A DNA stretch of 64,000 nt from Eledone cirrhosa (lineage: Eukaryota). Below, one piece after another: positions 6,978 through 64,000 of the stretch (its first letter is position 1; each line of letters opens with the position of its first letter). The stretch is from NCBI GenBank assembly GCA_964016885.1, contig OZ024757.1, positions 12,834,001 to 12,898,000 of the forward strand, read 5' to 3'. Position numbers and translations under genes: made by a program. The notes below the pieces were generated by a model that worked only from the letters and a program-made list of their open reading frames with translations, was not told the DNA's origin and searched no databases.

Positions 6978-7094
6978 ATATTAACTGAAATTACAGTTGA
7001 GGGAAATATAGAAGAAGAAATATTTTATAAGAAATATAATATAAAAAATACTACAAGGAAAACATTTGTATATTCTGTTGAAGAAGAAATCATT

Positions 7095-7900: not shown

Positions 7901-7952
7901 AAAAACCATGTCACTCACCTAAAATAGTGCCATCAATGTTGTTAATATTTTG

Positions 7953-7958: not shown

Positions 7959-7975
7959 CCTGTTTTACTAAGAAA

Positions 7976-8375: not shown

Positions 8376-8449
8376 ACTTAATGAAGGGTCTGTTTGGAAG
8401 TGCCTCCCCTAATAAACAGTGGTGCCATAACTGGACTCAGAAACCAATG

Positions 8450-12072: not shown

Positions 12073-13269
12073 TTTTTTTAGATTTCGAAACATGCAAAAA
12101 ATCAGAAGAACGTAAAAAGATTAATGCAGAAGTATACATTTCGACTATGAACTCACATTCATTCTTTTTGGAAAAACCTAAAAAAAATTGATTATATAAG
12201 GTTTTCGAAAAACCTAAAAAAATCAATACTTGAAATCAGATATAAATTTAATCTGCAAAATTTGAAACCAGAAAGTATATATTTCGAAAGATTTCGAAGC
12301 ATTAATTTTTTTACGTTTTTTTTAGATTTACATGCAAAAAATCAGAAAAACGTAAAAAGATTAATGAACTCACGTTCATTCTTTTTCGAAAAACCTAAAG
12401 AGAATTGATTATATAAGGTTTTCGAAAAACCTTAAAAAATCAATATTTGAAATCAGATATAAATATTTCTAAAAGTATAAAAAAATTGATTATATAAGGT
12501 TTTCGAAAAAAAATTAATATGCGTTTTTCAAATTGCGTTTTTCGAAATATTAACTTCTGATTTCGAAAACTGATTTTTTTAGGTTTTTCGAAAAAAATTT
12601 AATCTGCAAAATTTGAAACCAGAAAGTAGATACTTCGAAAGATTTGTAAAAGCATTAATTTTTCTTTATTTTTTTAGATTTACATGCAAAAATTCAGAAA
12701 AACGTAAAAAGATTATTGCAGAAGTATATATTTCGACTATGAAGTCACATTCATTCTTTTTCGAAAAACCTAAAAAAAATTGATTATATAGGATTTTTTT
12801 CGAAAAACCTAAAATAATCAATATTCAAAATCAGATATGAATATTTCTAAAAGTATAAAAAAATTGATTATATAAGGTTTTCGAAAAAAAATTAATATGC
12901 GTTTTTCAAATTGCGTTTTTCGAAATATTAACTTCTGAATTCGAAAACTGATTTTTTTAGGTTTTTCGAAAAAAATATAATCTGCAAAATTTGAAACCAG
13001 AAAGTAAATATTTCGAAAGATTTGTAAAAGCATTAATTTTTTACGTTTTTTTAGATTTCGAAACATGCCAAAAAACAGAAAAACGTAAAAAGATTAATGC
13101 AGAAGTATATATTTCGACTATGAACTTACATTCATTCTTTTTCGAAATACCTAAAAAAATTGATTTTATAAGGTTTTCGAAAAACCTAAAAAAATCAATA
13201 TTTGAAATCAGATATAAATATTTCTAAAAGTATTAAAAAATTGATTACATAAGGTTTTCGAAAAAAAAT

Positions 13270-16200
13270 TAATATGCGTTTTTCAAATTGCGTTTTTCGA
13301 AATATTAACTTCTGATTTCGAAAACTGATTTTTTTAGGTTTTTCGAAAAAAATTTAATCTACAAAATTTGAAATCAGAAAGTAAATATTTCGAAAGATTT
13401 GTAAAATCATTAATTTTTTACGTTTTTTTTAGATTTCGAAACATGCAAAAAATCAGAAAAACGTAAAAAGATTAATGCAAAAGTATATATTTCGACTATG
13501 AACACACATTCATTCTTTTTCGAAAAATATAAAAGTAATTGATTATATAAGATTTTTTTCGAAAAACCTCAAAAAATCAATGTTTAAAATCAGATATAAA
13601 TATTTCTAAAAGTATAAAAAAATTGATTATATAAGGTTTTCGAAAAAAATTAATATGCGTTTTTCAAATTGCGTTTTTCGAAATATTAACTTCTGATTTC
13701 GAAAACTGATTTTTTTTGGTTTTTCGAAAAAAATTTAATCTGCAAAATTTGAAACCAGAAAGTAGATATTTCGAAAGATTTGTAAAAGCATTAATTTTTT
13801 ACGTTTTTTTTAGATTTCGAAACATGCAAAATGTAAAAAGATTAATACAGAAACATGAAAAATGTAAAAAGATTAATACAGAAGTATATATTTCGACTAT
13901 GAACTCAGATTCATTCTTTTTCGAAAAACCTAAAAAAATTGATTATATAAGGTTTTCGAAAAACCTAAAAAAATCAATATTTGAAATCAGATATAAATAT
14001 TTCTAAAAGTATAAAAAAATTGATTATATAAGGTTTTCGAAAAAAAATTAATATGCGTTTTTCAAATTGCGTTTTTCGAACTTCTGATTTCGAAAACTGA
14101 TTTTTTTAGGTTTTTCGAAAAAAATTTAATCTGCAAAATTTGAAACCAGAAAGTAAATATTTCGAAAGATTTGTAAAAGCATGTTTTTTTTACGTTTTCG
14201 AAACATGCAAAAAATCAGAAAAAGATTAATACAGAAGTATATATTTCGACTATGAACTCACATTCATTCTTTTTCGAAAAACCTAAAAAAATCAATATTT
14301 GAAATCAGATATAAATATTTATAAAAAAATTGATTATATAAGGTTTTCGAAAAAAATTAATATGCGTTTTTCAAATTGCGTTTTTCGAAATATTAACTTC
14401 TGATTTCGAAAACTTATTTTTTTAGGTTTTTCGAAAAAAATTTAATCTGCAAAATTTGAAACCAGAAAGTTTCGAAAGATTTGTAAAAGCATGTTTTTTT
14501 TACGTTTTCGAAACATGCAAAAAATCAGAAAAAGATTAATACAGAAGTATATATTTCGACTATGAACTCACATTCATTCTTTTTCGAAAAACCTAAAAAA
14601 ATTGATTATATAAGGTTTTCGAAAAACCTAAAAAAATCAATATTTGAAATCAGATATAAATATTTCTAAAAGTATAAAAAAATTGATTATATAAAAAAAT
14701 ATTGATTATATAAAAAATATTGATTATATAAAAAAATTATTTTTCGAAAAAAAATTAATATGCGTTTTTCAAATTGCGTTTTTAGAAATATTAACTTCTG
14801 ATTTCGAAAACTGAATTTTTTAGGTTTTTCGAAAAAAATTTAATCTGCAAAATTTGAAACCAGAAAGTAGATATTTCGAAAGATTTGTAAAAGCATTAAT
14901 TTTTTACGTTTTTTTTTAGATTTCGAAACATGCAAAATGTAAAAAGATTAATACAGAAACATGAAAAATGTAAAAAGATTAATACAGAAGTATATATTTC
15001 GACTATGAACTCAGATTCATTCTTTTTCGAAAAACCTAAAAAAATTGATTATATAAGGTTTTCGAAAAACCTAAAAATATCAATATTTGAAATCAGATAT
15101 AAATATTTATAAAAAAATTGATTATATAAGGTTTTCGAAAAAAAATTAATATGCGTTTTTCAAATTGCGTTTTTCGAAATATTAACTTCTGATTTCGAAA
15201 ACTGATTTTTTTAGGTTTTTCGAAAAAAATTTAATCTGCAAAATTTGAAACCAGAAAGTAGATATTTCGAAAGATTTGTAAAAGCATTAATTTTTTACGT
15301 TTTTTTTAGATTTCGAAAATGCTAACAATCAGAAAAACGTAAAAAGATTAATGCAGAAGTATATATTTCGACTATGAACTCACATTCATTCTTTTTCGAA
15401 AAACCTAAAAAAATTGATTATATAAGGTTTTCGAAAAACCTAAAAAAATCAATATTTGAAATCAGATATAAATATTTCTAAAAGTATAAAAAAATTGATT
15501 ATATAAAAAAATATTGATTATATAAAAAATATTGATTATATAAAAAAATTATTTTTCGAAAAAAAATTAATATGCGTTTTTCAAGTTGCGTTTTTCGAAA
15601 TATTAACTTCTGATTTCGAAAACTGAATTTTTTAGGTTTTTCGAAAAAAATTTAATCTGCAAAATTTGAAACCAGAAAGTAGATATTTCGAAAGATTTGT
15701 AAAAGCATTAATTTTTTACGTTTTTTTTTAGATTTCGAAACATGCAAAATGTAAAAAGATTAATACAGAAACATGAAAAATGTAAAAAGATTAATACAGA
15801 AGTATATATTTCGACTATGAACTCAGATTCATTCTTTTTCGAAAAACCTAAAAAAATTGATTATATAAGGTTTTCGAAAAACCTAAAAAAATCAATATTT
15901 GAAATCAGATATAAATATTTATAAAAAAATTGATTATATAAGGTTTTCAAAAAAAATTAATATGCGTTTTTCAAATTGCGTTTTTCGAAATATTAACTTC
16001 TGATTTCGAAAACTTATTTTTTTAGGTTTTTCGAAAAAAATTTAATCTGCAAAATTTGAAACCAGAAAGTAAATATTTCGAAAGATTTGTAAAAGCATGT
16101 TTTTTTTACGTTTTCGAAACATGCAAAAAATCAGAAAAAGATTAATACAGAAGTATATATTTCGACTATGAACTCACATTCATTCTTTTTCGAAAAAACC

Positions 16201-19200
16201 TAAAAAAATCAATATTTGAAATCAGATATAAATATTTATAAAAAAATTGATTATATAAGGTTTTCGAAAAAAATTAATATGCGTTTTTCAAATTGCGTTT
16301 TTCGAAATATTAACTTCTGATTTCGAAAACTTATTTTTTTAGGTTTTTCGAAAAAAATTTAATCTGCAAAATTTGAAACCAGAAAGTTTCGAAAGATTTG
16401 TAAAAGCATGTTTTTTTTACGTTTTCGAAACATGCAAAAAATCAGAAAAAGATTAATACAGAAGTATATATTTCGACTATGAACTCACATTCATTCTTTT
16501 TCGAAAAACCTAAAAAAATTGATTATATAAGGTTTTCGAAAAACCTAAAAAAATCAATATTTGAAATCAGATATAAATATTTATAAAAAAATTGATTATA
16601 TAAGGTTTTCGAAAAAAATTAATATGCGTTTTTCAAATTGCGTTTTTCGAAATATTAACTTCTGATTTCGAAAACTTATTTTTTTAGGTTTTTCGAAAAA
16701 AATTTAATCTGAAAAATTTGAAACCAGAAAGTAGATATTTCGAAAGATTTGTAAAAGCATTAATTTTTTACGTTTTTTTTTAGATTTCGAAACATGCAAA
16801 ATGTAAAAAGATTAATACAGAAACATGAAAAATGTAAAAAGATTAATACAGAAGTATATATTTCGACTATGAACTCACATTCATTCTTTTTCGAAAAACC
16901 TAAAAAAATTGATTATATAAGGTTTTCGAAAAACCTAAAAAAATCAATATTTGAAATCAGATATAAATATTTATAAAAAAATTGATTATATAAGGTTTTC
17001 AAAAAAAATTAATATGCGTTTTTCAAATTGCGTTTTTCGAAATATTAACTTCTGATTTCGAAAACTTATTTTTTTAGGTTTTTCGAAAAAAATTTAATCT
17101 GCAAAATTTGAAACCAGAAAGTAAATATTTCGAAAGATTTGTAAAAGCATGTTTTTTTTACGTTTTCGAAACATGCAAAAAATCAGAAAAAGATTAATAC
17201 AGAAGTATATATTTCGACTATGAACTCACATTCATTCTTTTTCGAAAAACCTAAAAAAATCAATATTTGAAATCAGATATAAATATTTATAAAAAAATTG
17301 ATTATATAAGGTTTTCGAAAAAAATTAATATGCGTTTTTCAAATTGCGTTTTTCGAAATATTAACTTCTGATTTCGAAAACTTATTTTTTTAGGTTTTTC
17401 GAAAAAAATTTAAACTGCAAAATTTGAAACCAGAAAGTTTCGAAAGATTTGTAAAAGCATGTTTTTTTTACGTTTTCGAAACATGCAAAAAATCAGAAAA
17501 AGATTAATACAGAAGTATATATTTCGACTATGAACTCACATTCATTCTTTTTCGAAAAACCTAAAAAAATTGATTATATAAGGTTTTCGAAAAACCTAAA
17601 AAAATCAATATTTGAAATCAGATATAAATATTTATAAAAAAATTGATTATATAAGGTTTTCGAAAAAAATTAATATGCGTTTTTCAAATTGCGTTTTTCG
17701 AAATATTAACTTCTGATTTCGAAAACTTATTTTTTTAGGTTTTTCGAAAAAAATTTAATCTGCAAAATTTGAAACCAGAAAGTAGATATTTCGAAAGATT
17801 TGTAAAAGCATTAATTTTTTACGTTTTTTTTTAGATTTCGAAACATGCAAAATGTAAAAAGATTAATACAGAAACATGAAAAATGTAAAAAGATTAATAC
17901 AGAAGTATATATTTCGACTATGAACTCAGATTCATTCTTTTTCGAAAAACCTAAAAAAATTGATTATATAAGGTTTTCGAAAAACCTAAAAAAATCAATA
18001 TTTGAAATCAGATATAAATATTTATAAAAAAATTGATTATATAAGGTTTTCAAAAAAAATTAATATGCGTTTTTCAAATTGCGTTTTTCGAAATATTAAC
18101 TTCTGATTTCGAAAACTTATTTTTTTAGGTTTTTCGAAAAAAATTTAATCTGCAAAATTTGAAACCAGAAAGTAGATATTTCGAAAGATTTGTAAAAGCA
18201 TTAATTTTTTACGTTTTTTTTTAGATTTCGAAACATGCAAAATGTAAAAAGATTAATACAGAAACATGAAAAATGTAAAAAGATTAATACAGAAGTATAT
18301 ATTTCGACTATGAACTCAGATTCATTCTTTTTCGAAAAACCTAAAAAAATTGATTATATAAGGTTTTCGAAAAACCTAAAAAAATCAATATTTGAAATCA
18401 GATATAAATATTTATAAAAAAATTGATTATATAAGGTTTTCAAAAAAAATTAATATGCGTTTTTCAAATTGCGTTTTTCGAAATATTAACTTCTGATTTC
18501 GAAAACTTATTTTTTTAGGTTTTTCGAAAAAAATTTAATCTGCAAAATTTGAAACCAGAAAGTAAATATTTCGAAAGATTTGTAAAAGCATGTTTTTTTT
18601 ACGTTTTCGAAACATGCAAAAAATCAGAAAAAGATTAATACAGAAGTATATATTTCGACTATGAACTCACATTCATTCTTTTTCGAAAAAACCTAAAAAA
18701 ATCAATATTTGAAATCAGATATAAATATTTATAAAAAAATTGATTATATAAGGTTTTCGAAAAAAATTAATATGCGTTTTTCAAATTGCGTTTTTCGAAA
18801 TATTAACTTCTGATTTCGAAAACTTATTTTTTTAGGTTTTTCGAAAAAAATTTAATCTGCAAAATTTGAAACCAGAAAGTTTCGAAAGATTTGTAAAAGC
18901 ATGTTTTTTTTACGTTTTCGAAACATGCAAAAAATCAGAAAAAGATTAATACAGAAGTATATATTTCGACTATGAACTCACATTCATTCTTTTTCGAAAA
19001 ACCTAAAAAAATTGATTATATAAGGTTTTCGAAAAACCTAAAAAAATCAATATTTGAAATCAGATATAAATATTTATAAAAAAATTGATTATATAAGGTT
19101 TTCGAAAAAAATTAATATGCGTTTTTCAAATTGCGTTTTTCGAAATATTAACTTCTGATTTCGAAAACTTATTTTTTTAGGTTTTTCGAAAAAAATTTAA

Positions 19201-22200
19201 TCTGAAAAATTTGAAACCAGAAAGTAGATATTTCGAAAGATTTGTAAAAGCATTAATTTTTTACGTTTTTTTTTAGATTTCGAAACATGCAAAATGTAAA
19301 AAGATTAATACAGAAACATGAAAAATGTAAAAAGATTAATACAGAAGTATATATTTCGACTATGAACTCACATTCATTCTTTTTCGAAAAACCTAAAAAA
19401 ATTGATTATATAAGGTTTTCGAAAAACCTAAAAAAATCAATATTTGAAATCAGATATAAATATTTATAAAAAAATTGATTATATAAGGTTTTCAAAAAAA
19501 ATTAATATGCGTTTTTCAAATTGCGTTTTTCGAAATATTAACTTCTGATTTCGAAAACTTATTTTTTTAGGTTTTTCGAAAAAAATTTAATCTGCAAAAT
19601 TTGAAACCAGAAAGTAAATATTTCGAAAGATTTGTAAAAGCATGTTTTTTTTACGTTTTCGAAACATGCAAAAAATCAGAAAAAGATTAATACAGAAGTA
19701 TATATTTCGACTATGAACTCACATTCATTCTTTTTCGAAAAACCTAAAAAAATCAATATTTGAAATCAGATATAAATATTTATAAAAAAATTGATTATAT
19801 AAGGTTTTCGAAAAAAATTAATATGCGTTTTTCAAATTGCGTTTTTCGAAATATTAACTTCTGATTTCGAAAACTTATTTTTTTAGGTTTTTCGAAAAAA
19901 ATTTAATCTGCAAAATTTGAAACCAGAAAGTTTCGAAAGATTTGTAAAAGCATGTTTTTTTTACGTTTTCGAAACATGCAAAAAATCAGAAAAAGATTAA
20001 TACAGAAGTATATATTTCGACTATGAACTCACATTCATTCTTTTTCGAAAAACCTAAAAAAATTGATTATATAAGGTTTTCGAAAAACCTAAAAAAATCA
20101 ATATTTGAAATCAGATATAAATATTTATAAAAAAATTGATTATATAAGGTTTTCGAAAAAAATTAATATGCGTTTTTCAAATTGCGTTTTTCGAAATATT
20201 AACTTCTGATTTCGAAAACTTATTTTTTTAGGTTTTTCGAAAAAAATTTAATCTGCAAAATTTGAAACCAGAAAGTAGATATTTCGAAAGATTTGTAAAA
20301 GCATTAATTTTTTACGTTTTTTTTTAGATTTCGAAACATGCAAAATGTAAAAAGATTAATACAGAAACATGAAAAATGTAAAAAGATTAATACAGAAGTA
20401 TATATTTCGACTATGAACTCAGATTCATTCTTTTTCGAAAAACCTAAAAAAATTGATTATATAAGGTTTTCGAAAAACCTAAAAAAATCAATATTTGAAA
20501 TCAGATATAAATATTTATAAAAAAATTGATTATATAAGGTTTTCAAAAAAAATTAATATGCGTTTTTCAAATTGCGTTTTTCGAAATATTAACTTCTGAT
20601 TTCGAAAACTTATTTTTTTAGGTTTTTCGAAAAAAATTTAATCTGCAAAATTTGAAACCAGAAAGTAGATATTTCGAAAGATTTGTAAAAGCATTAATTT
20701 TTTACGTTTTTTTTTAGATTTCGAAACATGCAAAATGTAAAAAGATTAATACAGAAACATGAAAAATGTAAAAAGATTAATACAGAAGTATATATTTCGA
20801 CTATGAACTCAGATTCATTCTTTTTCGAAAAACCTAAAAAAATTGATTATATAAGGTTTTCGAAAAACCTAAAAATATCAATATTTGAAATCAGATATAA
20901 ATATTTATAAAAAAAATTGATTATATAAGGTTTTCGAAAAAAAATTAATATGCGTTTTTCAAATTGCGTTTTTCGAAATATTAACTTCTGATTTCGAAAA
21001 CTGATTTTTTTAGGTTTTTCGAAAAAAATTTAATCTGCAAAATTTGAAACCAGAAAGTAGATATTTCGAAAGATTTGTAAAAGCATTAATTTTTTACTTT
21101 TTTTTAGATTTCGAAAATGCTAACAATCAGAAAAACGTAAAAAGATTAATGCAGAAGTATATATTTCGACTATGAACTCACATTCATTCTTTTTCGAAAA
21201 ACCTAAAAAAATTGATTATATAAGGTTTTCGAAAAACCTAAAAAAATCAATATTTGAAATCAGATATAAATATTTCTAAAAGTATAAAAAAATTGATTAT
21301 ATAAAAAAATATTGATTATATAAAAAATATTGATTATATAAAAAAATTATTTTTCGAAAAAAAATTAATATGCGTTATTCAAGTTGCGTTTTTCGAAATA
21401 TAAACTTCTGATTTCGAAAACTTATTTTTTCAGGTTTTTCGAAAAAAATTTAATCTGCAAAATTTGAAACCAGAAAGTAAATATTTCGAAAGATTTGTAA
21501 AAGCATGTTTTTTTTACGTTTTCGAAACATGCAAAAAATCAGAAAAAGATTAATACAGAAGTATATATTTCGACTATGAACTCACATTCATTCTTTTTCG
21601 AAAAACCTAAAAAAATCAATATTTGAAATCAGATATAAATATTTATAAAAAAATTGATTATATAAGGTTTTCGAAAAAAATTAATATGCGTTTTTCAAAT
21701 TGCGTTTTTCGAAATATTAACTTCTGATTTCGAAAACTTATTTTTTTAGGTTTTTCGAAAAAAATTTAATCTGCAAAATTTGAAACCAGAAAGTAGATAT
21801 TTCGAAAGATTTGTAAAATCATTAATTTTTTACGTTTTTTTTTAGATTTCGAAACATGCAAAATGTAAAAAGATTAATACAGAAACATGAAAAATGTAAA
21901 AAGATTAATACAGAAGTATATATTTCGACTATGAACTCAGATTCATTCTTTTTCGAAAAACCTAAAAAAATTGATTATATAAGGTTTTCGAAAAACCTAA
22001 AAATATCAATATTTGAAATCAGATATAAATATTTATAAAAAAATTGATTATCGAAAAAAAATTAATATGCCTTTTTCAAATTGCGTTTTTCGAAATATTA
22101 ACTTCTGATTTCGAAAACTGATTTTTTTAGGTTTTTCGAAAAAAATTTAATCTGCAAAATTTGAAACCAGAAAGTAGATATTTCGAAAGATTTGTAAAAG

Positions 22201-25200
22201 CATTAATTTTTTACGTTTTTTTTAGATTTCGAAAATGCTAACAATCAGAAAAACGTAAAAAGATTAATGCAGAAGTATATATTTCGACTATGAACTCACA
22301 TTCATTCTTTTTCGAAAAACCTAAAAAAATCAATATTTGAAATCAGATATAAATATTTATAAAAAAATTGATTATATAAGGTTTTCGAAAAAAATTAATA
22401 TGCGTTTTTCAAATTGCGTTTTTCGAAATATTAACTTCTGATTTCGAAAACTTATTTTTTTAGGTTTTTCGAAAAAAATTTAATCTGCAAAATTTGAAAC
22501 CAGAAAGTTTCGAAAGATTTGTAAAAGCATGTTTTTTTTACGTTTTCGAAACATGCAAAAAATCAGAAAAAGATTAATACAGAAGTATATATTTCGACTA
22601 TGAACTCACATTCATTCTTTTTCGAAAAACCTAAAAAAATTGATTATATAAGGTTTTCGAAAAACCTAAAAAAATCAATATTTGAAATCAGATATAAATA
22701 TTTATAAAAAAATTGATTATATAAGGTTTTCGAAAAAAATTAATATGCGTTTTTCAAATTGCGTTTTTCGAAATATTAACTTCTGATTTCGAAAACTTGT
22801 TTTTTTAGGTTTTTCGAAAAAAATTTAATCTGCAAAATTTGAAACCAGAAAGTTTCGAAAGATTTGTAAAAGCATGTTTTTTTTACGTTTTCGAAACATG
22901 CAAAAAATCAGAAAAAGATTAATACAGAAGTATATATTTCGACTATGAACTCACATTCATTCTTTTTCGAAAAACCTAAAAAAATTGATTATATAAGGTT
23001 TTCGAAAAACCTAAAAAAATCAATATTTGAAATCAGATATAAATATTTCTAAAAGTATAAAAAAAATTGATTATATAAGGTTTTCGAAAAAAAATTAATA
23101 TGCGTTTTTCAAATTGCGTTTTTCGAACTTCTGATTTCGAAAACTGATTTTTTTAGGTTTTTCGAAAAAAATTTAATCTGCAAAATTTGAAACCAGAAAG
23201 TAGATATTTCGAAAGATTTGTAAAAGCATTAATTTTTTACGTTTTTTATTAGATTTCGAAACATGCAAAATGTAAAAAGATTAATACAGAAACATGAAAA
23301 ATGTAAAAAGATTAATACAGAAGTATATATTTCGACTATGAACTCACATTCATTCTTTTTCGAAAAACCTAAAAAAATTGATTATATAAGGTTTTCGAAA
23401 AACCTAAAAAAATCAATATTTGAAATCAGATATAAATATTTATAAAAAAATTGATTATATAAGGTTTTCAAAAAAAATTAATATGCGTTTTTCAAATTGC
23501 GTTTTTCGAAATATTAACTTCTGATTTCGAAAACTTATTTTTTTAGGTTTTTCGAAAAAAATTTAATCTGCAAAATTTGAAACCAGAAAGTAAATATTTC
23601 GAAAGATTTGTAAAAGCATGTTTTTTTTACGTTTTCGAAACATGCAAAAAATCAGAAAAAGATTAATACAGAAGTATATATTTCGACTATGAACTCACAT
23701 TCATTCTTTTTCGAAAAACCTAAAAAAATCAATATTTGAAATCAGATATAAATATTTATAAAAAAATTGATTATATAAGGTTTTCGAAAAAAATTAATAT
23801 GCGTTTTTCAAATTGCGTTTTTCGAAATATTAACTTCTGATTTCGAAAACTTATTTTTTTAGGTTTTTCGAAAAAAATTTAATCTGCAAAATTTGAAACC
23901 AGAAAGTTTCGAAAAAAAATCAGAAAAAGATTAATACAGAATTATATATTTCGACTATGAACTCACATTCATTCTTTTTCGAAAAACCTAAAAAAATTGA
24001 TTATATAAGGTTTTCGAAAAACCTAAAAATATCAATATTTGAAATCAGATATAAATATTTATAAAAAAATTGATTATATAAGGTTTTCGAAAAAAAATTG
24101 ATATGCGTTTTTCAAATTGCGTTTTTCGAAATATTAACTTCTGATTTCGAAAACTGATTTTTTTAGGTTTTTCGAAAAAAATTTAATCTGCAAAATTTGA
24201 AACCAGAAAGTAGATATTTCGAAAGATTTGTAAAAGCATTAATTTTTTACGTTTTTTTTTAGATTTCGAAAATGCTAACAATCAGAAAAACGTAAAAAGA
24301 TTAATGCAGAAGTATATATTTCGACTATGAACTCACATTCATTCTTTTTCGAAAAACCTAAAAAAATTGATTATATAAGGTTTTCGAAAAACCTAAAAAA
24401 ATCAATATTTGAAATCAGATATAAATATTTCTAAAAGTATAAAAAAATTGATTATATAAAAAAATATTGATTATATAAAAAATATTGATTATATAAAAAA
24501 ATTATTTTTCGAAAAAAAATTAATATGCGTTTTTCAAGTTGCGTTTTTCGAAATATTAACTTCTGATTTCGAAAACTGAATTTTTTAGGTTTTTCGAAAA
24601 AAATTTAATCTGCAAAATTTGAAACCAGAAAGTAGATATTTCGAAAGATTTGTAAAAGCATTAATTTTTTACGTTTTTTTTTAGATTTCGAAACATGCAA
24701 AATGTAAAAAGATTAATACAGAAACATGAAAAATGTAAAAAGATTAATACAGAAGTATATATTTCGACTATGAACTCAGATTCATTCTTTTTCGAAAAAC
24801 CTAAAAAAATTGATTATATAAGGTTTTCGAAAAACCTAAAAAAATCAATATTTGAAATCAGATATAAATATTTATAAAAAAATTGATTATATAAGATTTT
24901 CAAAAAAAATTAATATGCGTTTTTCAAATTGCGTTTTTCGAAATATTAACTTCTGATTTCGAAAACTGATTTTTTTAGGTTTTTCGAAAAAAATTTAATC
25001 TACAAAATTTGAAATCAGAAAGTAAATATTTCGAAAGATTTGTAAAATCATTAATTTTTTACGTTTTTTTTAGATTTCGAAACATGCAAAAAATCAGAAA
25101 AACGTAAAAAGATTAATGCAAAAGTATATATTTCGACTATGAACACACATTCATTCTTTTTCGAAAAATATAAAAGTAATTGATTATATAAGATTTTTTT

Positions 25201-28200
25201 CGAAAAACCTCAAAAAATCAATGTTTAAAATCAGATATAAATATTTCTAAAAGTATAAAAAAATTGATTATATAAGGTTTTCGAAAAAAATTAATATGCG
25301 TTTTTCAAATTGCGTTTTTCGAAATATTAACTTCTGATTTCGAAAACTGATTTTTTTTGGTTTTTCGAAAAAAATTTAATCTGCAAAATTTGAAACCAGA
25401 AAGTAGATATTTCGAAAGATTTGTAAAAGCATTAATTTTTTACGTTTTTTTTAGATTTCGAAACATGCAAAATGTAAAAAGATTAATACAGAAACATGAA
25501 AAATGTAAAAAGATTAATACAGAAGTATATATTTCGACTATGAACTCAGATTCATTCTTTTTCGAAAAACCTAAAAAAATTGATTATATAAGGTTTTCGA
25601 AAAACCTAAAAAAATCAATATTTGAAATCAGATATAAATATTTCTAAAAGTATAAAAAAATTGATTATATAAGGTTTTCGAAAAAAAATTAATATGCGTT
25701 TTTCAAATTGCGTTTTTCGAACTTCTGATTTCGAAAACTGATTTTTTTAGGTTTTTCGAAAAAAATTTAATCTGCAAAATTTGAAACCAGAAAGTAAATA
25801 TTTCGAAAGATTTGTAAAAGCATGTTTTTTTTACGTTTTCGAAACATGCAAAAAATCAGAAAAAGATTAATACAGAAGTATATATTTCGACTATGAACTC
25901 ACATTCATTCTTTTTCGAAAAACCTAAAAAAATCAATATTTGAAATCAGATATAAATATTTATAAAAAAATTGATTATATAAGGTTTTCGAAAAAAATTA
26001 ATATGCGTTTTTCAAATTGCGTTTTTCGAAATATTAACTTCTGATTTCGAAAACTTATTTTTTTAGGTTTTTCGAAAAAAATTTAATCTGCAAAATTTGA
26101 AACCAGAAAGTTTCGAAAGATTTGTAAAAGCATGTTTTTTTTACGTTTTCGAAACATGCAAAAAATCAGAAAAAGATTAATACAGAAGTATATATTTCGA
26201 CTATGAACTCACATTCATTCTTTTTCGAAAAACCTAAAAAAATTGATTATATAAGGTTTTCGAAAAACCTAAAAAAATCAATATTTGAAATCAGATATAA
26301 ATATTTCTAAAAGTATAAAAAAATTGATTATATAAAAAAATATTGATTATATAAAAAATATTGATTATATAAAAAAATTATTTTTCGAAAAAAAATTAAT
26401 ATGCGTTTTTCAAATTGCGTTTTTAGAAATATTAACTTCTGATTTCGAAAACTGAATTTTTTAGGTTTTTCGAAAAAAATTTAATCTGCAAAATTTGAAA
26501 CCAGAAAGTAGATATTTCGAAAGATTTGTAAAAGCATTAATTTTTTACGTTTTTTTTTAGATTTCGAAACATGCAAAATGTAAAAAGATTAATACAGAAA
26601 CATGAAAAATGTAAAAAGATTAATACAGAAGTATATATTTCGACTATGAACTCAGATTCATTCTTTTTCGAAAAACCTAAAAAAATTGATTATATAAGGT
26701 TTTCGAAAAACCTAAAAATATCAATATTTGAAATCAGATATAAATATTTATAAAAAAATTGATTATATAAGGTTTTCGAAAAAAAATTAATATGCGTTTT
26801 TCAAATTGCGTTTTTCGAAATATTAACTTCTGATTTCGAAAACTGATTTTTTTAGGTTTTTCGAAAAAAATTTAATCTGCAAAATTTGAAACCAGAAAGT
26901 AGATATTTCGAAAGATTTGTAAAAGCATTAATTTTTTACGTTTTTTTTAGATTTCGAAAATGCTAACAATCAGAAAAACGTAAAAAGATTAATGCAGAAG
27001 TATATATTTCGACTATGAACTCACATTCATTCTTTTTCGAAAAACCTAAAAAAATTGATTATATAAGGTTTTCGAAAAACCTAAAAAAATCAATATTTGA
27101 AATCAGATATAAATATTTCTAAAAGTATAAAAAAATTGATTATATAAAAAAATATTGATTATATAAAAAATATTGATTATATAAAAAAATTATTTTTCGA
27201 AAAAAAATTAATATGCGTTTTTCAAGTTGCGTTTTTCGAAATATTAACTTCTGATTTCGAAAACTGAATTTTTTAGGTTTTTCGAAAAAAATTTAATCTG
27301 CAAAATTTGAAACCAGAAAGTAGATATTTCGAAAGATTTGTAAAAGCATTAATTTTTTACGTTTTTTTTTAGATTTCGAAACATGCAAAATGTAAAAAGA
27401 TTAATACAGAAACATGAAAAATGTAAAAAGATTAATACAGAAGTATATATTTCGACTATGAACTCAGATTCATTCTTTTTCGAAAAACCTAAAAAAATTG
27501 ATTATATAAGGTTTTCGAAAAACCTAAAAAAATCAATATTTGAAATCAGATATAAATATTTATAAAAAAATTGATTATATAAGGTTTTCAAAAAAAATTA
27601 ATATGCGTTTTTCAAATTGCGTTTTTCGAAATATTAACTTCTGATTTCGAAAACTTATTTTTTTAGGTTTTTCGAAAAAAATTTAATCTGCAAAATTTGA
27701 AACCAGAAAGTAAATATTTCGAAAGATTTGTAAAAGCATGTTTTTTTTACGTTTTCGAAACATGCAAAAAATCAGAAAAAGATTAATACAGAAGTATATA
27801 TTTCGACTATGAACTCACATTCATTCTTTTTCGAAAAAACCTAAAAAAATCAATATTTGAAATCAGATATAAATATTTATAAAAAAATTGATTATATAAG
27901 GTTTTCGAAAAAAATTAATATGCGTTTTTCAAATTGCGTTTTTCGAAATATTAACTTCTGATTTCGAAAACTTATTTTTTTAGGTTTTTCGAAAAAAATT
28001 TAATCTGCAAAATTTGAAACCAGAAAGTTTCGAAAGATTTGTAAAAGCATGTTTTTTTTACGTTTTCGAAACATGCAAAAAATCAGAAAAAGATTAATAC
28101 AGAAGTATATATTTCGACTATGAACTCACATTCATTCTTTTTCGAAAAACCTAAAAAAATTGATTATATAAGGTTTTCGAAAAACCTAAAAAAATCAATA

Positions 28201-37762: not shown

Positions 37763-37863
37763 AAATTGATTATATAAGGTTTTCGAAAAACCTAAAAAAA
37801 ATCAATATTTGATTTCAAATATTGATTTTTTTAGGTTTTTCGAAAACCTTATATAATCAATTT
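37763..37863. repeat. near-perfect ~100-bp palindrome (50/49-bp arms, TT loop) formed by a local fold-back inversion
   Basis: aaattgattatataaggttttcgaaaaacctaaaaaaaatcaatatttga-tt-tcaaatattgatttttttaggtttttcgaaaaccttatataatcaattt. Confidence 0.95.
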
Positions 37864-49800: not shown

Positions 49801-51033
49801 ATATAAGATTTTCAAAAAAAATTAATATGCGTTTTTCAAATTGCGTTTTTCGAAATATTAACTTCTGATTTCGAAAACTTATTTTTTTAGGTTTTTCGAA
49901 AAAAATTTAATCTGCAAAATTTGAAACCAGAAAGTAAATATTTCGAAAGATTTGTAAAAGCATGTTTTTTTTACGTTTTCGAAACATGCAAAAAATCAGA
50001 AAAAGATTAATACAGAAGTATATATTTCGACTATGAACTCACATTCATTCTTTTTCGAAAAACCTAAAAAAATCAATATTTGAAATCAGATATAAATATT
50101 TATAAAAAAATTGATTATATAAGGTTTTCGAAAAAAATTAATATGCGTTTTTCAAATTGCGTTTTTCGAAATATTAACTTCTGATTTCGAAAACTTATTT
50201 TTTTAGGTTTTTCGAAAAAAATTTAATCTGCAAAATTTGAAACCAGAAAGTTTCGAAAGATTTGTAAAAGCATGTTTTTTTTACGTTTTCGAAACATGCA
50301 AAAAATCAGAAAAAGATTAATACAGAAGTATATATTTCGACTATGAACTCAGATTCATTCTTTTTCGAAAAACCTAAAAAAATTGATTATATAAGGTTTT
50401 CGAAAAACCTAAAAAAATCAATATTTGAAATCAGATATAAATATTTCTAAAAGTATAAAAAAAATTGATTATATAAGGTTTTCGAAAAAAAATTAATATG
50501 CGTTTTTCAAATTGCGTTTTTCGAACTTCTGATTTCGAAAACTGATTTTTTTAGGTTTTTCGAAAAAAATTTAATCTGCAAAATTTGAAACCAGAAAGTA
50601 AATATTTCGAAAGATTTGTAAAAGCATGTTTTTTTTACGTTTTCGAAACATGCAAAAAATCAGAAAAAGATTAATATATTTCGACTATGAACTCACATTC
50701 ATTCTTTTTCGAAAAACCTAAAAAAATCAATATTTGAAATCAGATATAAATATTTATAAAAAAATTGATTATATAAGGTTTTCGAAAAAAATTAATATGC
50801 GTTTTTCAAATTGCGTTTTTCGAAATATTAACTTCTGATTTCGAAAACTTATTTTTTTAGGTTTTTCGAAAAAAATTTAATCTGCAAAATTTGAAACCAG
50901 TAAGTTTCGAAAGATTTGTAAAAGCATGTTTTTTTTACGTTTTCGAAACATGCAAAAAATCAGAAAAAGATTAATACAGAAGTATATATTTCGACTATGA
51001 ACTCACATTCATTCTTTTTTGAAAAACCTAAAA

Positions 51034-51134
51034 AAATTGATTATATAAGGTTTTCGAAAAACCTAAAAAAAATCAATATTTGATTTCAAATATTGATTTT
51101 TTTAGGTTTTTCGAAAACCTTATATAATCAATTT
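51034..51134. repeat. second copy of the fold-back palindrome (+13,271)
   Basis: Same sequence as 37763-37863. Confidence 0.95.
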
Positions 51135-54100
51135 ATAAAAAAATTGATTATATAAGGTTTTCGAAAAAAATTAATATGCGTTTTTCAAATTGCGTTTTTC
51201 GAAATATTAACTTCTGATTTTGAAAACTTATTTTTTTAGGTTTTTCGAAAAAAATTTAATCTGCAAAATTTGAAACCAGAAAGTAAATATTTCAAAAACC
51301 ATTAATATTTTACGTTTTTTATTAGATAGAAAAACGTAAAAAGATTAATGCAGAAATATATATTTCGACTATGAACTCACATTCATTCTTTTTCGAAAAA
51401 CCTAAAAAAATTGATTATATAAGGTTTTCGAAAAACCTAAAAAAATCAATATTTGAAATCAGATATAAATATTTATAAAAAAATTGATTATATAAGGTTT
51501 TCGAAAAAAAATTAATATGCGTTTTTCAAATTGCGTTTTTCGAAATATTAACTTCTGATTTCGAAAACTGATTTTTTTAGGTTTTTCGAAAAAAATTTAA
51601 TCTGCAAAATTTGAAACCAGAAAGTAGATATTTCGAAAGATTTGTAAAAGCATTAATTTTTTACGTTTTTTTTAAATTTCGAAAATGCTAACAATCAGAA
51701 AAACGTAAAAAGATTAATGCAGAAGTATATATTTCGACTATGAACTCACATTCATTCTTTTTCGAAAAACCTAAAAAAATCAATATTTGAAATCAGATAT
51801 AAATATTTCTAAAAGTATAAAAAAATTGATTATATAAAAAAATATTGATTATATAAAAAATATTGATTATATAAAATAATTATTTTTCGAAAAAAAATTA
51901 ATATGCGTTTTTCAAATTGCGTTTTTTGAAATATTAACTTCTGATTTCGAAAACTGATTTTTTTAGGTTTTTCGAAAAAAATTTAATCTGCAAAATTTGA
52001 AACCAGACAGTAGATATTTCGAAAGATTTGTAAAAGCATTAATTTTTTACGTTTTTTTTAGATTTCGAAACATGCAAAATGTAAAAAGATTAATACAGAA
52101 ACATGAAAAATGTAAAAAGATTAATACAGAAGTATATATTTCGACTATGAACTCAGATTCATTCTTTTTCGAAAAACCTAAAAAAATCAATATTTGAAAT
52201 CAGATATAAATATTTCTAAAAGTATAAAAAAATTGATTATATAAAAAAATATTGATTATATAAAAAATATTGATTATATAAAAAAATTATTTTTCGAAAA
52301 AAAATTAATATGCGTTTTTCAAATTGCGTTTTTCGAAATATTAACTTCTGATTTCGAAAACTGATTTTTTTAGGTTTTTCGAAAAAAATTTAATCTGCAA
52401 AATTTGAAACCAGAAAGTAGATATTTCGAAAGATTTGTAAAAGCATTAATTTTTTACGTTTTTTTTAGATTTCGAAACATGCAAAATGTAAAAAGATTAA
52501 TACAGAAACATGAAAAATGTAAAAAGATTAATACAGAAGTATATATTTCGACTATGAACTCAGATTCATTCTTTTTCGAAAAACCTAAAAAAATTGATTA
52601 TATAAGGTTTTCGAAAAACCTAAAAAAATCAATATTTGAAATCAGATATAAATATTTCTAAAAGTATAAAAAAATTGATTATATAAGGTTTTCGAAAAAA
52701 AATTAATATGCGTTTTTCAAATTGCGTTTTTCGAACTTCTGATTTCGAAAACTGATTTTTTTAGGTTTTTTGAAAAAAATTTAATCTGCAAAATTTGAAA
52801 CCAGAAAGTAAATATTTCGAAAGATTTGTAAAAGCATGTTTTTTTTACGTTTTCGAAACATGCAAAAAATCAGAAAAAGATTAATACAGAAGTATATATT
52901 TCGACTATGAACTCACATTCATTCTTTTTCGAAAAACCTAAAAAAATTGATTATATAAGGTTTTCGAAAAACCTAAAAAAATCAATATTTGAAATCAGAT
53001 ATAAATATTTCTAAAAGTATAAAAAAATTGATTATATAAAAAAATATTGATTATATAAAAAATATTGATTATATAAAAAAATTATTTTTCGAAACAAAAT
53101 TAATATGCGTTTTTGAAATTGCGTTTTTCGAAATATTAACTGCTGATTTCGAAAACTGATTTTTTTAGGTTTTTCGAAAAAAATTTAATCTGCAAAACTT
53201 GAAACCAGAAAGTAGATATTTCGAAAGATTTGTAAAAGCATTAATTTTTTACGTTTTTTTTAGATTTCGAAACACGCAAAATGTAAAAAGATTAATACAG
53301 AAACATGAAAAATGTAAAAAGATTAATACAGAAGTATATATTTCGACTATGAACTCAGATTCATTCTTTTTCGAAAAACCTAAAAAAATTGATTATATAA
53401 GGTTTTCGAAAAACCTAAAAAAATCAATATTTGAAATCAGATATAAATATTTATAAAAAAATTGATTATATAAGGTTTTCAAAAAAAATTAATATGCGTT
53501 TTTCAAATTGCGTTTTTCGAAATATTAACTTCTAATTTCGAAAACTTATTTTTTTAGGTTTTTCGAAAAAAATTTAATCTGCAAATTTTGAAACCAGAAA
53601 GTAGATATTTCGAAAGATTTGTAAAAGCATTAATTTTTTACGTTTTTTTTAGATTTCGAAACATGCAAAATGTAAAAAGATTAATACAGAAACATGAAAA
53701 ATGTAAAAAGATTAATACAGAAGTATATATTTCGACTATGAACTCAGATTCATTCTTTTTCGAAAAACCTAAAAAAATCAATATTTGAAATCAGATATAA
53801 ATATTTCTAAAAGTATAAAAAAAATTGATTATATAAGGTTTTCGAAAAAAAATTAATATGCGTTTTTCAAATTGCGTTTTTCGAACTTCTGATTTCGAAA
53901 ACTTATTTTTTTAGGTTTTTCGAAAAAAATTTAATCTGCAAAATTTGAAACCAGAAAGTAAATATTTCGAAAGATTTGTAAAAGCATGTTTTTTTTACGT
54001 TTTCGAAACATGCAAAAAATCAGAAAAAGATTAATACAGAAGTATATATTTCGACTATGAACTCAAATTCATTTTTGTTCGAAAAACCTAAAAAAAAATT

Positions 54101-57100
54101 GATTATATAAGGTTTTCGAAAAGAATTAATATACGTTTTTCAAATTGCGTTTTTCGAAATATTAACTTCTGATTTCGAAAACTTATTTTTTTAGGTTTTT
54201 CGAAAAAAATTTAATCTGCAAAATTTGAAACCAGAAAGTAGATATTTCGAAAGATTTGTAAAATCATTAATTTTTTACGTTTTTTTTTAGATTTCGAAAC
54301 ATGCAAAATGTAAAAAGATTAATACAGAAACATGAAAAATGTAAAAAGATTAATACAGAAGTATATATTTCGACTATGAACTCAGATTCATTCTTTTTCG
54401 AAAAACCTAAAAAAATTGATTATATAAGGTTTTCGAAAAACCTAAAAATATCAATATTTGAAATCAGATATAAATATTTATAAAAAAATTGATTATATAA
54501 GGTTTTCGAAAAAAAATTAATATGCCTTTTTCAAATTGCGTTTTTCGAAATATTAACTTCTGATTTCGAAAACTGATTTTTTTAGGTTTTTCGAAAAAAA
54601 TTTAATCTGCAAAATTTGAAACCAGAAAGTAGATATTTCGAAAGATTTGTAAAAGCATTAATTTTTTACGTTTTTTTTAGATTTCGAAAATGCTAACAAT
54701 CAGAAAAACATAAAAAGATTAATGCAGAAGTATATATTTCGACTATGAACTCACATTCATTCTTTTTCGAAAAACCTAAAAAAATTGATTATATAAGGTT
54801 TTCGAAAAACCTAAAAAAATCAATATTTGAAATCAGATATAAATATTTATAAAAAAATTGATTATATAAGGTTTTCAAAAAAAATTAATATGCGTTTTTC
54901 AAATTGCGTTTTTCGAAATATTAACTTCTGATTTCGAAAACTTATTTTTTTAGGTTTTTCGAAAAAAATTTAATCTGCAAAATTTGAAACCAGAGAGTTT
55001 CGAAAGATTTGTAGAAGCATATTTTTTTTACGTTTTCGAAAAATGCAAAAAATCAGAAAAAGATTAATACAGAAGTATATATTTCGACTATGAACTCACA
55101 TTCATTCTTTTTCGAAAAACCTAAAAAAATTGATTATATAAGGTTTTCGAAAAACCTAAAAAAATCAATATTTGAAATCAGATATAAATATTTATAAAAA
55201 AATTGATTATATAAGGTTTTCAAAAAAAATTAATATGCGTTTTTCAAATTGCGTTTTTCGAAATATTAACTTCTGATTTCGAAAACTTATTTTTTTAGGT
55301 TTTTCGAAAAAAATTTAATCTGCAAAATTTGAAACCAGAAAGTAAATATTTCGAAAGATTTGTAAAAGCATGTTTTTTTTACGTTTTCGAAACATGCAAA
55401 AAATCAGAAAAAGATTAATACAGAAGTATATATTTCGACTATGAACTCACATTCATTCTTTTTCGAAAAACCTAAAAAAATTGATTATATAAGGTTTTCG
55501 AAAAACCTAAAAAAATCAATATTTGAAATCAGATATAAATATTTATAAAAAAATTGATTATATAAGGTTTTCAAAAAAAATTAATATGCGTTTTTCAAAT
55601 TGCGTTTTTCGAAATATTAACTTCTGATTTCGAAAACTTATTTTTTTAGGTTTTTCGAAAAAAATTTAATCTGCAAAATTTGAAACCAGAAAGTAAATAT
55701 TTCGAAAGATTTGTAAAAGCATGTTTTTTTTACGTTTTCGAAACATGCAAAAAATCAGAAAAAGATTAATACAGAAGTATATATTTCGACTATGAACTCA
55801 CATTCATTCTTTTTCGAAAAACCTAAAAAAATCAATATTTGAAATCAGATATAAATATTTATAAAAAAATTGATTATATAAGGTTTTCGAAAAAAATTAA
55901 TATGCGTTTTTCAAATTGCGTTTTTCGAAATATTAACATCTGATTTCGAAAACTTATTTTTTTAGGTTTTTCGAAAAAAATTTAATCTGCAAAATTTGAA
56001 ACCAGAAAGTTTCGAAAGATTTGTAAAAGCATGTTTTTTTTACGTTTTCGAAACATGCAAAAAATCAGAAAAAGATTAATACAGAAATATATATTTCGAC
56101 TATGAACTCACATTCATTCTTTTTCGAAAAACCTAAAAAAATTGATTATATAAGGTTTTCGAAAAACCTAAAAATATCAATATTTGAAATCAGATATAAA
56201 TATTTATACAAAAATTGATTATATAAGGTTTTCGAAAAAAAATTAATATGCGTTTTTCAAATTGCGTTTTTCGAAATATTAACTTCTGATTTCGAAAACT
56301 GATTTTTTTAGGTTTTTCGAAAAAAATTTAATCTGCAAAATTTGAAACCAGAAAGTAGATATTTCGAAAGATTTGTAAAAGCATTAATTTTTTACGTTTT
56401 TTTTTAGATTTCGAAACATGCAAAATGTAAAAAGATTAATACAGAAACATGAAAAATGTAAAAAGATTAATACAGAAGTATATATTTCGACTATGAACTC
56501 AGATTCATTCTTTTTCGAAAAACCTAAAAAAATTGATTATATAAGGTTTTCGAAAAACCTAAAAAAATCAATATTTGAAATCAGATATAAATATTTATAA
56601 AAAAATTGATTATATAAGGTTTTCAAAAAAAATTAATATGCGTTTTTCAAATTGCGTTTTTCGAAATATTAACTTCTGATTTCGAAAACTTATTTTTTTA
56701 GGTTTTTCGAAAAAAATTTAATCTGCAAAATTTGAAACCAGAGAGTTTCGAAAGATTTGTAGAAGCATATTTTTTTTACGTTTTCGAAAAATGCAAAAAA
56801 TCAGAAAAAGATTAATACAGAAGTATATATTTCGACTATGAACTCACATTCATTCTTTTTCGAAAAACCTAAAAAAATTGATTATATAAGGTTTTCGAAA
56901 AACCTAAAAAAATCAATATTTGAAATCAGATATAAATATTTATAAAAAAATTGATTATATAAGGTTTTCGAAAAAAATTAATATGCGTTTTTCAAATTGC
57001 GTTTTTCGAAATATTAACTTCTGATTTCGAAAACTTATTTTTTTAGGTTTTTCGAAAAAAATTTAATCTGCAAAATTTGAAACCAGAAAGTAGATATTTC

Positions 57101-63100: not shown

Positions 63101-64000
63101 AATCAATATTTGAAATCAGATATAAATATTTATAAAAAAATTGATTATATAAGGTTTTCAAAAAAAATTAATATGCGTTTTTCAAATTGCGTTTTTCGAA
63201 ATATTAACTTCTGATTTCGAAAACTTATTTTTTTAGGTTTTTCGAAAAAAATTTAATCTGCAAAATTTGAAACCAGAAAGTAAATATTTCGAAAGATTTG
63301 TAAAAGCATGTTTTTTTTACGTTTTCGAAACATGCAAAAAATCAGAAAAAGATTAATACAGAAGTATATATTTCGACTATGAACTCACATTCATTCTTTT
63401 TCGAAAAAACCTAAAAAAATCAATATTTGAAATCAGATATAAATATTTATAAAAAAATTGATTATATAAGGTTTTCGAAAAAAATTAATATGCGTTTTTC
63501 AAATTGCGTTTTTCGAAATATTAACTTCTGATTTCGAAAACTTATTTTTTTAGGTTTTTCGAAAAAAATTTAATCTTCAAAATTTGAAACCAGAGAGTTT
63601 CGAAAGATTTGTAAAAGCATGTTTTTTTTACGTTTTCGAAACATGCAAAAAATCAGAAAAAGATTAATACAGAAGTATATATTTCGACTATGAACTCACA
63701 TTCATTCTTTTTCGAAAAACCTAAAAAAATTGATTATATAAGGTTTTCGAAAAACCTAAAAAAATCAATATTTGAAATCAGATATAAATATTTATAAAAA
63801 AATTGATTATATAAGGTTTTCGAAAAAAATTAATATGCGTTTTTCAAATTGCGTTTTTCGAAATATTAACTTCTGATTTCGAAAACTTATTTTTTTAGGT
63901 TTTTCGAAAAAAATTTAATCTGCAAAATTTGAAACCAGAAAGTAGATATTTCGAAAGATTTGTAAAAGCATTAATTTTTTACGTTTTTTTTTAGATTTCG

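What the first reader, a model, noticed from the sequence alone, without database searches (positions are those of the whole stretch)
12073..64000. Candidate centromere-type satellite with multi-level higher-order repeats
Seen: ~364-bp mean monomer (32 monomers per 11,641 bp), ~21% GC by hand count of one 390-bp monomer, and a single orientation. I saw no transposon insertion over 52 kb, although the flank is full of them. Periodicities are nested: 3-mer 1051/1052 bp, 7-mer 2493 bp (1052+1051+390; 15742 to 18235 to 20728), 32-mer 11,641 bp, plus larger duplications. Established: AT-rich monomers of one to two nucleosome lengths, higher-order repeats, homogeneous cores and diverged edges typify centromeric satellites such as primate alpha satellite. 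Inference: this may be an uncharacterised cephalopod centromeric or subtelomeric satellite. I do not recognise the family.
Basis: partly seen in the sequence, partly recalled or inferred. Interest (0 to 1): 0.78.

Follow-up and report, generated by a model that had tools for sequence, protein, structure and literature searches.

The report
Octopus mid-chromosome AT-rich satellite array
This is a real 220,000-base block of tandemly repeated AT-rich DNA in the interior of an octopus-type chromosome, sandwiched between telomere-like repeats; it possibly marks that chromosome's centromere (about even odds, untested), but a different, far more abundant 196-base repeat in the same genome is the stronger general centromere candidate.

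Summary
Observation confirmed and extended. The array (window 12,073 onward) runs 220.5 kb on G000:C18: 608 anchored monomers, mean about 363 bp, 21% GC, one orientation, no insertion or gap. The 1051/1052, 2493 and 11,641 bp periods are real, but each long one is a two- or three-copy block duplication. No tested lag covers more than 16% of the array, so these are heterogeneous, not alpha-like regimented, higher-order repeats. It is not subtelomeric: it lies 30% along a 43.9 Mb scaffold that ends in a telomere. It is framed by a telomere-like 32-bp satellite in opposite orientations. Relatives sit in single satellite clusters on 7 of 28 chromosome-scale scaffolds, and such clusters lie nearer mid-chromosome than chance. 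Against a general centromere role: the family has about 1,400 motif copies, whereas a 196-bp satellite has 23,165 and forms 0.35 to over 0.8 Mb arrays on C1, C2 and C4.

The parts
12073..64000 (+). Satellite A: AT-rich (21% GC), CpG-rich (o/e 2.8), about 7 TTCGAA palindromes per ~360-bp monomer; continues 168.6 kb beyond the window to G000:C18:13,066,604
12073..13898 (+). Diverged left edge: first five monomers carry 19-34% rare 12-mers against about 0-1% in the core
15559..20918 (+). 7-mer (2,493 bp) block duplicated in tandem, itself built from 1052+1051+390 bp
13254..36688 (+). 32-monomer (11,641 bp) tandem block duplication, 6 mismatches in 11,794 bp
32019..56748 (+). 11.5 kb block duplicated at a lag of 13,271 bp, 12 mismatches
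9317..12072 (+). Satellite B: degenerate telomere-like 32-bp repeat, G-rich on +, 2.75 kb; the same family abuts the far end of the array in the opposite orientation for about 183 kb
6954..7445 (+). C2H2 zinc-finger ORF in the flank; used only as a host marker (best hits Octopus spp.)

Best explanation
A 220-kb homogenised AT-rich satellite, framed by telomere-like repeats in a roughly 407-kb satellite block 30% along an octopod chromosome, that likely marks this chromosome's centromere region and likely grew by repeated block duplication. Shown: size, single orientation, no insertions, homogeneous core with diverged edges, nested duplications of 1 to 30 kb at 99.7-99.97% identity, hairpin-prone monomer, inverted telomere-like flanks, relatives confined to single satellite clusters on other chromosomes. 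Inferred: amplification by unequal exchange or break-induced copying between out-of-register monomers, with occasional fold-back at the internal inverted repeats (22 inverted module copies inside the array). Inferred and untested: that the block is centromeric (0.5 in all: about 0.3 that CENP-A sits on A itself, about 0.2 that A is pericentromeric and CENP-A sits on adjacent DNA). On this reading the genome is polytypic: A would be a chromosome-restricted centromere satellite, not the genome-wide one.
For: Long, contiguous, insertion-free and homogeneous: 99.999% family coverage over 220,532 bp, median 98.3% identity, 540 of 607 monomers have an exact copy, while the diverged C10 island of the family carries a ~190-bp dispersed-repeat insertion. 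Diverged edges on both sides. Hairpin propensity: fold z -5.3, 0 of 100 shuffles as stable; dyad coverage 0.245 against 0.148 in shuffles, z 4.7; dyad enrichment at centromeres is reported in PMC5889037 (search listing only). Family members occur at one interstitial cluster each on C2, C8, C10, C13, C18, C25 and in one 10.8 Mb block on C28; telomere-like satellites lie beside them at 6 of these 7 (none seen in the C10 stretches held). Nine clusters defined by A or the telomere-like satellites: 5 of 9 lie within 6% of the chromosome midpoint; P(mean) 0.0035, KS p 0.019 against uniform placement. Octopod karyotypes are mostly meta/submetacentric (PMC5646656, abstract) with centromeric C-bands (PMC6160780, passages). 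No 196-bp satellite motif in 559 kb held from C18 or 399 kb from the C8, C10, C13, C14 and C25 clusters.
Against: No CENP-A, FISH, Hi-C or methylation data. The family is small: 1,437 motif copies genome-wide, 605 of them in this array, and no pattern found it on 21 of 28 chromosome-scale scaffolds. A 196-bp, 49% GC satellite has 23,165 motif copies and arrays on C1, C2, C4 and C28, two of them at assembly gaps; only about 9-10 thousand copies are accounted for by the arrays I sized, so one may lie elsewhere on C18 (559 kb of 43.9 Mb examined). On C2 the A-bearing cluster (209.9 Mb) and a >=0.8 Mb array of the 196-bp family (243.6-244.4+ Mb) are 34 Mb apart, so both cannot be the one centromere. 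The midpoint test is post hoc, on nine points. Monomer length is variable (217-664 bp between anchors) and there is no 10.5-bp AA/TT phasing. In Arabidopsis, telomere-like pericentromeric arrays exclude CENH3 (10.64898/2026.05.10.723265, abstract).
Confidence: 0.5

Rival explanations
1. A non-centromeric heterochromatic block: a relic centromere or an end-to-end fusion scar whose satellite kept amplifying, with C18's kinetochore on a 196-bp array elsewhere or in unassembled sequence.
For: G-rich strands of both flanking B arrays point into the A array, the orientation of a telomere-telomere join. Interstitial TTAGGG-type tracts lie in the C3, C8, C13 and C14 clusters. C2 has the A cluster and a large 196-bp array 34 Mb apart. 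The 196-bp family is 16-fold more abundant and of nucleosome length.
Against: The left B tract is only 2.75 kb and runs against the usual A/telomere-like polarity (22 of 26 scored junction sides have A+ with the C-rich strand, copies not independent), so a local inversion explains the symmetry as well. Interstitial telomeric tracts also flank the 196-bp arrays, so they do not single out dead sites. The array is young and insertion-free.
Confidence: 0.35
2. The family is real but the array's size and its largest duplications (11,641, 13,271, 17,790, 30,380 bp) are inflated by mis-assembly, for instance two haplotypes joined in tandem.
For: The duplications differ by only 6-13 bases over 11-30 kb.
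Against: No N gap in the array; duplications are nested at many lags and dispersed up to 77 kb apart; tandem joints occur in independent reads.
Confidence: 0.1
3. A subtelomeric satellite, placed internally by a scaffolding error.
For: Telomere-like flanks; the first 10 kb of C18 has no telomere.
Against: No gap in 12.794-13.198 Mb; unique, zinc-finger and transposon sequence to the left and non-satellite sequence from 13.25 Mb; a perfect telomere of at least 10 kb lies 30.9 Mb away.
Confidence: 0.03
4. Foreign DNA from another organism.
For: 21% GC and CpG o/e 2.8 against 0.41 in the flank.
Against: Gap-free junctions with host satellite B, relatives on 7 chromosome-scale scaffolds, high depth in runs of one species label.
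Confidence: 0.01

Closest known systems
Satellite-type centromeres with heterogeneous HORs and ditypic/polytypic genomes (Darwin Tree of Life centromere atlas, 10.64898/2026.09.17.752431; sections 4, 6, 19 read)
   Same: Long homogenised array, block duplications without long-range periodicity, chromosome-specific variants (17-mer sharing between loci 2-11%, except C25/C916 41%), several satellite families in one genome.
   Different: A is not the most abundant family and is large on one chromosome only; its monomer length is unusually variable. The main text names no mollusc or cephalopod; its supplementary tables could not be seen.
Primate alpha satellite (recalled; regimented HORs as described in the atlas, section 6)
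   Same: AT-rich, single orientation, homogeneous core with diverged edges.
   Different: No multi-copy regimented HOR; about 360-bp indel-variable monomer instead of a fixed unit; CpG-rich; 0.22 Mb.
Arabidopsis pericentromeric interstitial telomeric repeat domains (10.64898/2026.05.10.723265, abstract)
   Same: Large telomere-like arrays with higher-order structure next to a centromere-type satellite.
   Different: There the telomeric motifs arise inside the centromeric monomer; here A shows no similarity to satellites B or D and abuts them at sharp junctions.
Drosophila centromere islands in simple satellite (PMC6516634, abstract)
   Same: On C28, 1-3 kb A islands lie inside about 8 Mb of a 16-bp simple satellite.
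   Different: The Drosophila islands are retroelement-rich; these islands are a complex satellite, and CENP-A status is unknown.

Membership tests
Centromeric satellite | CENP-A/kinetochore occupancy | not testable with these tools
   No chromatin data available.
Centromeric satellite | Location at the primary constriction | not testable with these tools
   Only a positional proxy: clusters near mid-chromosome.
Centromeric satellite | Long contiguous array | tested here: met
   220,532 bp without insertion or gap.
Centromeric satellite | High sequence homogenisation | tested here: met
   Median 98.3% identity; 540 of 607 monomers have an exact copy.
Centromeric satellite | Shared by many chromosomes, one locus each | tested here: inconclusive
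   Found on 7 of 28 chromosome-scale scaffolds, mostly as small or diverged islands; listings were cut at 100 rows.
Centromeric satellite | Dominant complex satellite of the genome | tested here: not met
   1,437 motif copies against 23,165 for the 196-bp family.
Centromeric satellite | Gene-poor, transposon-rich surroundings | tested here: inconclusive
   Flanks hold transposon pieces and minisatellites but also zinc-finger ORFs 5 and 37 kb away; no chromosome-wide profile.
Centromeric satellite | Dyad symmetry / non-B propensity (supporting, not defining) | tested here: met
   Fold z -5.3, dyad z 4.7; a 392-bp piece of the 196-bp rival gives z -1.05.
Alpha-satellite-like regimented HOR array | One multimeric unit repeated many times in register | tested here: not met
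   None of 8 tested lags covers more than 16% of the array.
Alpha-satellite-like regimented HOR array | Near-constant monomer length | tested here: not met
   217-664 bp between anchors; main classes 310, 351, 369, 390, 443.
Subtelomeric satellite | Adjacent to a chromosome end | tested here: not met
   12.8 Mb and 30.9 Mb from the scaffold ends.
Telomere-fusion scar | Head-to-head telomeric repeats | tested here: inconclusive
   Degenerate telomere-like B arrays are head-to-head, but the left one is 2.75 kb and may be a local inversion.
Telomere-fusion scar | Break in synteny across the site | not testable with these tools
   No related genome is held.

The most novel reading that the evidence does not exclude
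This octopod has polytypic centromeres built inside telomere-like satellite: the giant chromosomes use a 196-bp GC-balanced repeat, while C18 and other small chromosomes use unrelated chromosome-specific cores (the palindromic AT-rich A array here, a 321-bp repeat on C14) nested in 16- and 32-bp telomere-like arrays. These would be the first sequence-level centromere candidates for a cephalopod.
Probability: 0.25. Interest if true: 0.7.

Novelty: new member of a known kind. Interest (0 to 1): 0.47.

Why it matters
My paper searches found no description of centromeric DNA in any cephalopod; the cuttlefish genome paper still proposes centromere labelling as future work (PMC13218726, passages). 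This locus and the families found while following it give four concrete probe sets (A about 360 bp, B 32 bp, D 16 bp, E 196 bp) with coordinates, which turns 'what is an octopus centromere' into one FISH or CUT&Tag experiment. The array by itself is an ordinary kind of object: complex satellites with nested duplications are common.

Tried and rejected
Regimented HOR model: rejected. CpG deamination as a sign of germline methylation: 15 of 22 CpG positions against 33 of 59 other C/G positions show transitions, Fisher p 0.45, no signal (a blunt test). Indels ending at TTCGAA palindromes: 2 of 55 distinct deletions have CG in their microhomology, not supported (depends on one alignment setting). 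Nucleosome-type 10.5-bp AA/TT phasing: not seen. Canonical G-quadruplex motifs in the left B tract: 0. Rfam on window 1-20,000: 0 matches. Origin from a dispersed element: the 40 rows shown were swamped by one element inserted in the C10 island, unresolved. Presence in other species: runs labelled organisms B-F hold 5-54% of the words, but the two I laid (X4, X5) have summed depth of 12-73 and about 2, which trace DNA could give; no conclusion. No RNA holder listed. Copy number from reads: X1 summed word depth is mostly 9,000-37,000 with a peak of 134,000, but no single-copy baseline was obtained, so no copy number is given. Mapping the 196-bp family onto C18: the last genome search listed only C1 places, so this stays open. 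ESM Atlas gave only 'C2H2 zinc finger'. Earlier scan notes: none for this genome, one unrelated hit.
Full report
OBSERVATION. The window is G000:C18:12,834,001-12,898,000, on a 43,930,943 bp scaffold of a 2.996 Gb assembly. From 12,073 to the end it is a tandem array at 21.2% GC with 144 monomer anchors, none on the minus strand. Fetching onward shows the array ends at C18:13,066,604: 220,532 bp, 608 anchors, no N. Family hits cover 99.999% of it and no 200-bp window exceeds 27% GC, so there is no insertion. A raw-read run of another sample has 76 reads across the head-to-tail joint.

INTERNAL ANATOMY. There are 172 distinct monomers among 607, and 67 are singletons. They differ mainly by block indels, such as a 35-bp module, a triplicated 18-19-bp unit and a 31-bp duplication; median substitution identity to one 390-bp monomer is 98.3%. 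Each monomer has about 7 TTCGAA palindromes and 11 CpG, o/e 2.8 against 0.41 in the flank. It carries internal inverted repeats: DNA fold z -5.3 and dyad coverage z 4.7. Twenty-two copies of one module are inverted inside the array, which I read as fold-back events (inference). The higher-order structure is a nest of near-identical block duplications: 30,490 bp at lag 30,380, 14,394 at 17,790, 11,800 at 11,641, 11,460 at 13,271, and dozens of 3-5 kb. None of 8 tested lags covers more than 16% of the array. This is the heterogeneous HOR type, not the regimented human type, in the terms of the centromere atlas (10.64898/2026.09.17.752431, section 6). The first five and last eleven or so monomers are diverged.

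SURROUNDINGS. Left of the array is 2.75 kb of a degenerate telomere-like 32-bp satellite (B), G-rich on +. Right of it B runs C-rich on +, continuously from 13,066,668 to at least 13,198,000 and again in samples at 13.225 and 13.240-13.250 Mb, and is absent at 13.250-13.253 Mb. That is about 183 kb, with continuity between samples inferred. C18 ends in at least 10 kb of perfect TTAGGG, 30.9 Mb away; its first 10 kb has no telomere. The array is therefore interstitial, at 30% of the scaffold. The flank's zinc-finger ORF has Octopus proteins as its four best hits, up to 77% identity. C28 is 136.5 Mb, C27 22.4 Mb and C29 49 kb, so I count 28 chromosome-scale scaffolds (lengths seen for 15 of them).

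THE FAMILY ELSEWHERE. A conserved 24-mer with up to 2 mismatches occurs 1,437 times genome-wide (control 0), 605 of them in this array. Other loci: C2 209.88 Mb (about 2 kb), C8 31.03 and 31.31-31.32, C10 37.50 and 37.575-37.586, C13 26.35 and 26.38, C25 19.865-19.965, islands on C28 between 124.63 and at least 132.6, and unplaced C916. Among C1-C17 an exact 18-mer core occurs on 3 of 17, and another module adds C8 (all 57 rows). Among C19-C27 only C25 appears (first 100 of 164 rows). Each locus has its own variant: 17-mer sharing with C18 is 4-11%, units range from 37 to about 830 bp, and the C10 and C13 copies are shuffled and inverted. At 6 of the 7 placed loci the family abuts B, a related 16-bp satellite (D) or interstitial TTAGGG tracts; none was seen in the 58 kb held from C10. 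D occupied every non-A sample from 127.1 to 135.35 Mb of C28, spans 209.20-209.75 Mb of C2 and starts at 184.77 Mb of C3. At 22 of 26 scored junction sides A+ runs with the C-rich strand; many are copies of each other, one mixed-orientation island was left out, and the left B tract of C18 is one of the four exceptions.

POSITION TEST. The nine clusters defined by A, B or D lie at 0.497, 0.488, 0.488, 0.492, 0.441, 0.321, 0.322, 0.297 and 0.048 of their scaffold from the nearer end. Against uniform placement P(mean) is 0.0035 and KS p 0.019. The test is post hoc and small, but it fits octopod karyotypes that are mostly metacentric (PMC5646656, abstract) with centromeric C-bands (PMC6160780, passages). 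CENP-A is reported in molluscs including an octopod (PMC12210499, passages).

THE RIVAL FAMILY. A 1,584-bp repeat in the C28 block proved to be a form of a 196-bp satellite (E): 49% GC, 93% adjacent identity on C1, no similarity to A beyond 12-13 bp. Its core 22-mer has 23,165 matches. Arrays lie on C1 279.70-280.05+ Mb, C4 211.63-212.2+, C2 243.6-244.4+ and C28 about 126.1-126.4, with fragments on C3 184.75 and C2 209.875; the C1 and C4 arrays touch assembly gaps. By abundance, monomer length and spread, E is the better genome-wide centromere candidate. The sized arrays explain roughly 9-10 thousand copies (my estimate from sample densities; the right end of the C2 array was not found), so the rest may lie on other chromosomes. 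No E motif occurs in 559 kb held from C18, or in 399 kb from five other small-chromosome clusters. I could not list E by chromosome beyond C4, so whether C18 has an E array is open. On C2 the A/D cluster and the large E array are 34 Mb apart, which shows that an A-bearing cluster need not be the main satellite site.

MECHANISM. Shown: a young, insertion-free array made of nested duplications, with diverged edges. Inferred from established satellite biology: out-of-register recombination or break-induced copying produced the duplications, and the repeat-rich block is heterochromatic. Inferred and untested: the block is C18's centromere region (0.5), with CENP-A on A at about 0.3. The main rival is a non-centromeric relic or fusion scar (0.35). 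Inflation by mis-assembly (0.1) is not exclusive of these. Subtelomeric placement (0.03) and contamination (0.01) are unlikely.

COMPARISON AND NOVELTY. It works like a satellite-type centromere or pericentromere with heterogeneous HORs. It meets the array-length and homogeneity criteria used by the atlas pipeline (sections 4 and 19), is inconclusive on sharing, and fails on dominance. It is not alpha-like and not subtelomeric. The telomere-like frame resembles Arabidopsis pericentromeric ITR domains (abstract), and the C28 islands resemble Drosophila centromere islands (abstract). Six paper searches listed no cephalopod centromere or satellite sequence. The atlas main text names no mollusc, but its supplementary tables, which I could not see, cover 28 further invertebrates and might include one. 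No repeat library such as Dfam or Repbase was available, so the family may already have a library name.

VERDICT. Real, larger than reported, interstitial, a new member of a known kind. Interest 0.47: ordinary as an object, but with families B, D and E it gives testable centromere candidates in a group where my searches found none described.

Noticed in passing
G000:C1:279.70-280.05 Mb, C4:211.63-212.2 Mb, C2:243.6-244.4 Mb, C28:126.1-126.4 Mb (L154, L156, L158-L162, L174, L181, L186-L189, L099): A 196-bp, 49% GC satellite with 23,165 motif copies, HORs of 392, 785 and about 1,950 bp, a 227-bp variant, arrays at assembly gaps; the best genome-wide centromere candidate seen. It deserves its own follow-up.
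   Followed up: partly
G000:C28:124.55-135.37 Mb (L074-L085, L094-L111): A 10.8 Mb block near the end of the last-numbered large scaffold, bracketed by inward-pointing B arrays, with about 8 Mb of a 16-bp telomere-like satellite that holds A islands, and an E array inside.
   Followed up: partly
G000:C14:23.50 Mb (L128): A 321-bp satellite, 98% adjacent identity, with a 962-bp 3-mer, lying between two B arrays of opposite orientation at the middle of C14; a possible chromosome-specific core.
   Followed up: no
G000:C13:26.34-26.70 Mb (L027-L029, L044-L049, L069-L073): Mosaic of a 23-bp satellite, A, B and interstitial telomeric tracts, with a 25.3 kb tandem duplication.
   Followed up: partly
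G000:C1-C4: Four giant scaffolds of 379-443 Mb against 22-137 Mb for the others seen; C2 and C3 carry telomere-like arrays at 50% and 49% of their length, and C2 has two satellite clusters 34 Mb apart, as a fusion product might.
   Followed up: no
G000:C18:13.07-13.20 Mb (L017-L020, L034-L043): The right B array has its own long-range duplications at about 1.9, 2.1, 23.6 and 28.3 kb.
   Followed up: partly
window 6954-7868 and L032:3912-5111: C2H2 zinc-finger ORFs with 84-bp finger repeats 5 kb and 37 kb from the array; the second has a 399-residue open frame, the fingers at window 7584-7868 are degenerate.
   Followed up: partly
window 3964-4951: 61-bp minisatellite, 16 copies, 90% matches; a 60-bp one of 56 copies lies in L030.
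   Followed up: no
L031:2200-6420 (C18:12.816-12.820 Mb): An LTR retrotransposon-like element with two similar terminal repeats, inside a LINE-like element, about 26 kb left of the array (read by eye).
   Followed up: no
L023:4600-4800 and many flank loci: A ~190-bp dispersed repeat, abundant in the flanks at 88-97% identity, has one insertion in the C10 island of the family and none in the C18 array.
   Followed up: partly
window 55-95: A short stretch that resembles modules of the diverged C8/C25 family members by eye; run X12 also shows a 38-bp A module in unrelated contexts, so modules may occur dispersed.
   Followed up: partly
G000:C916 (128 kb, unplaced; L090, L091): A and B arrays sharing 41% of 17-mers with the C25 locus, which has an assembly gap at its left end; probably its missing part or other haplotype.
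   Followed up: no
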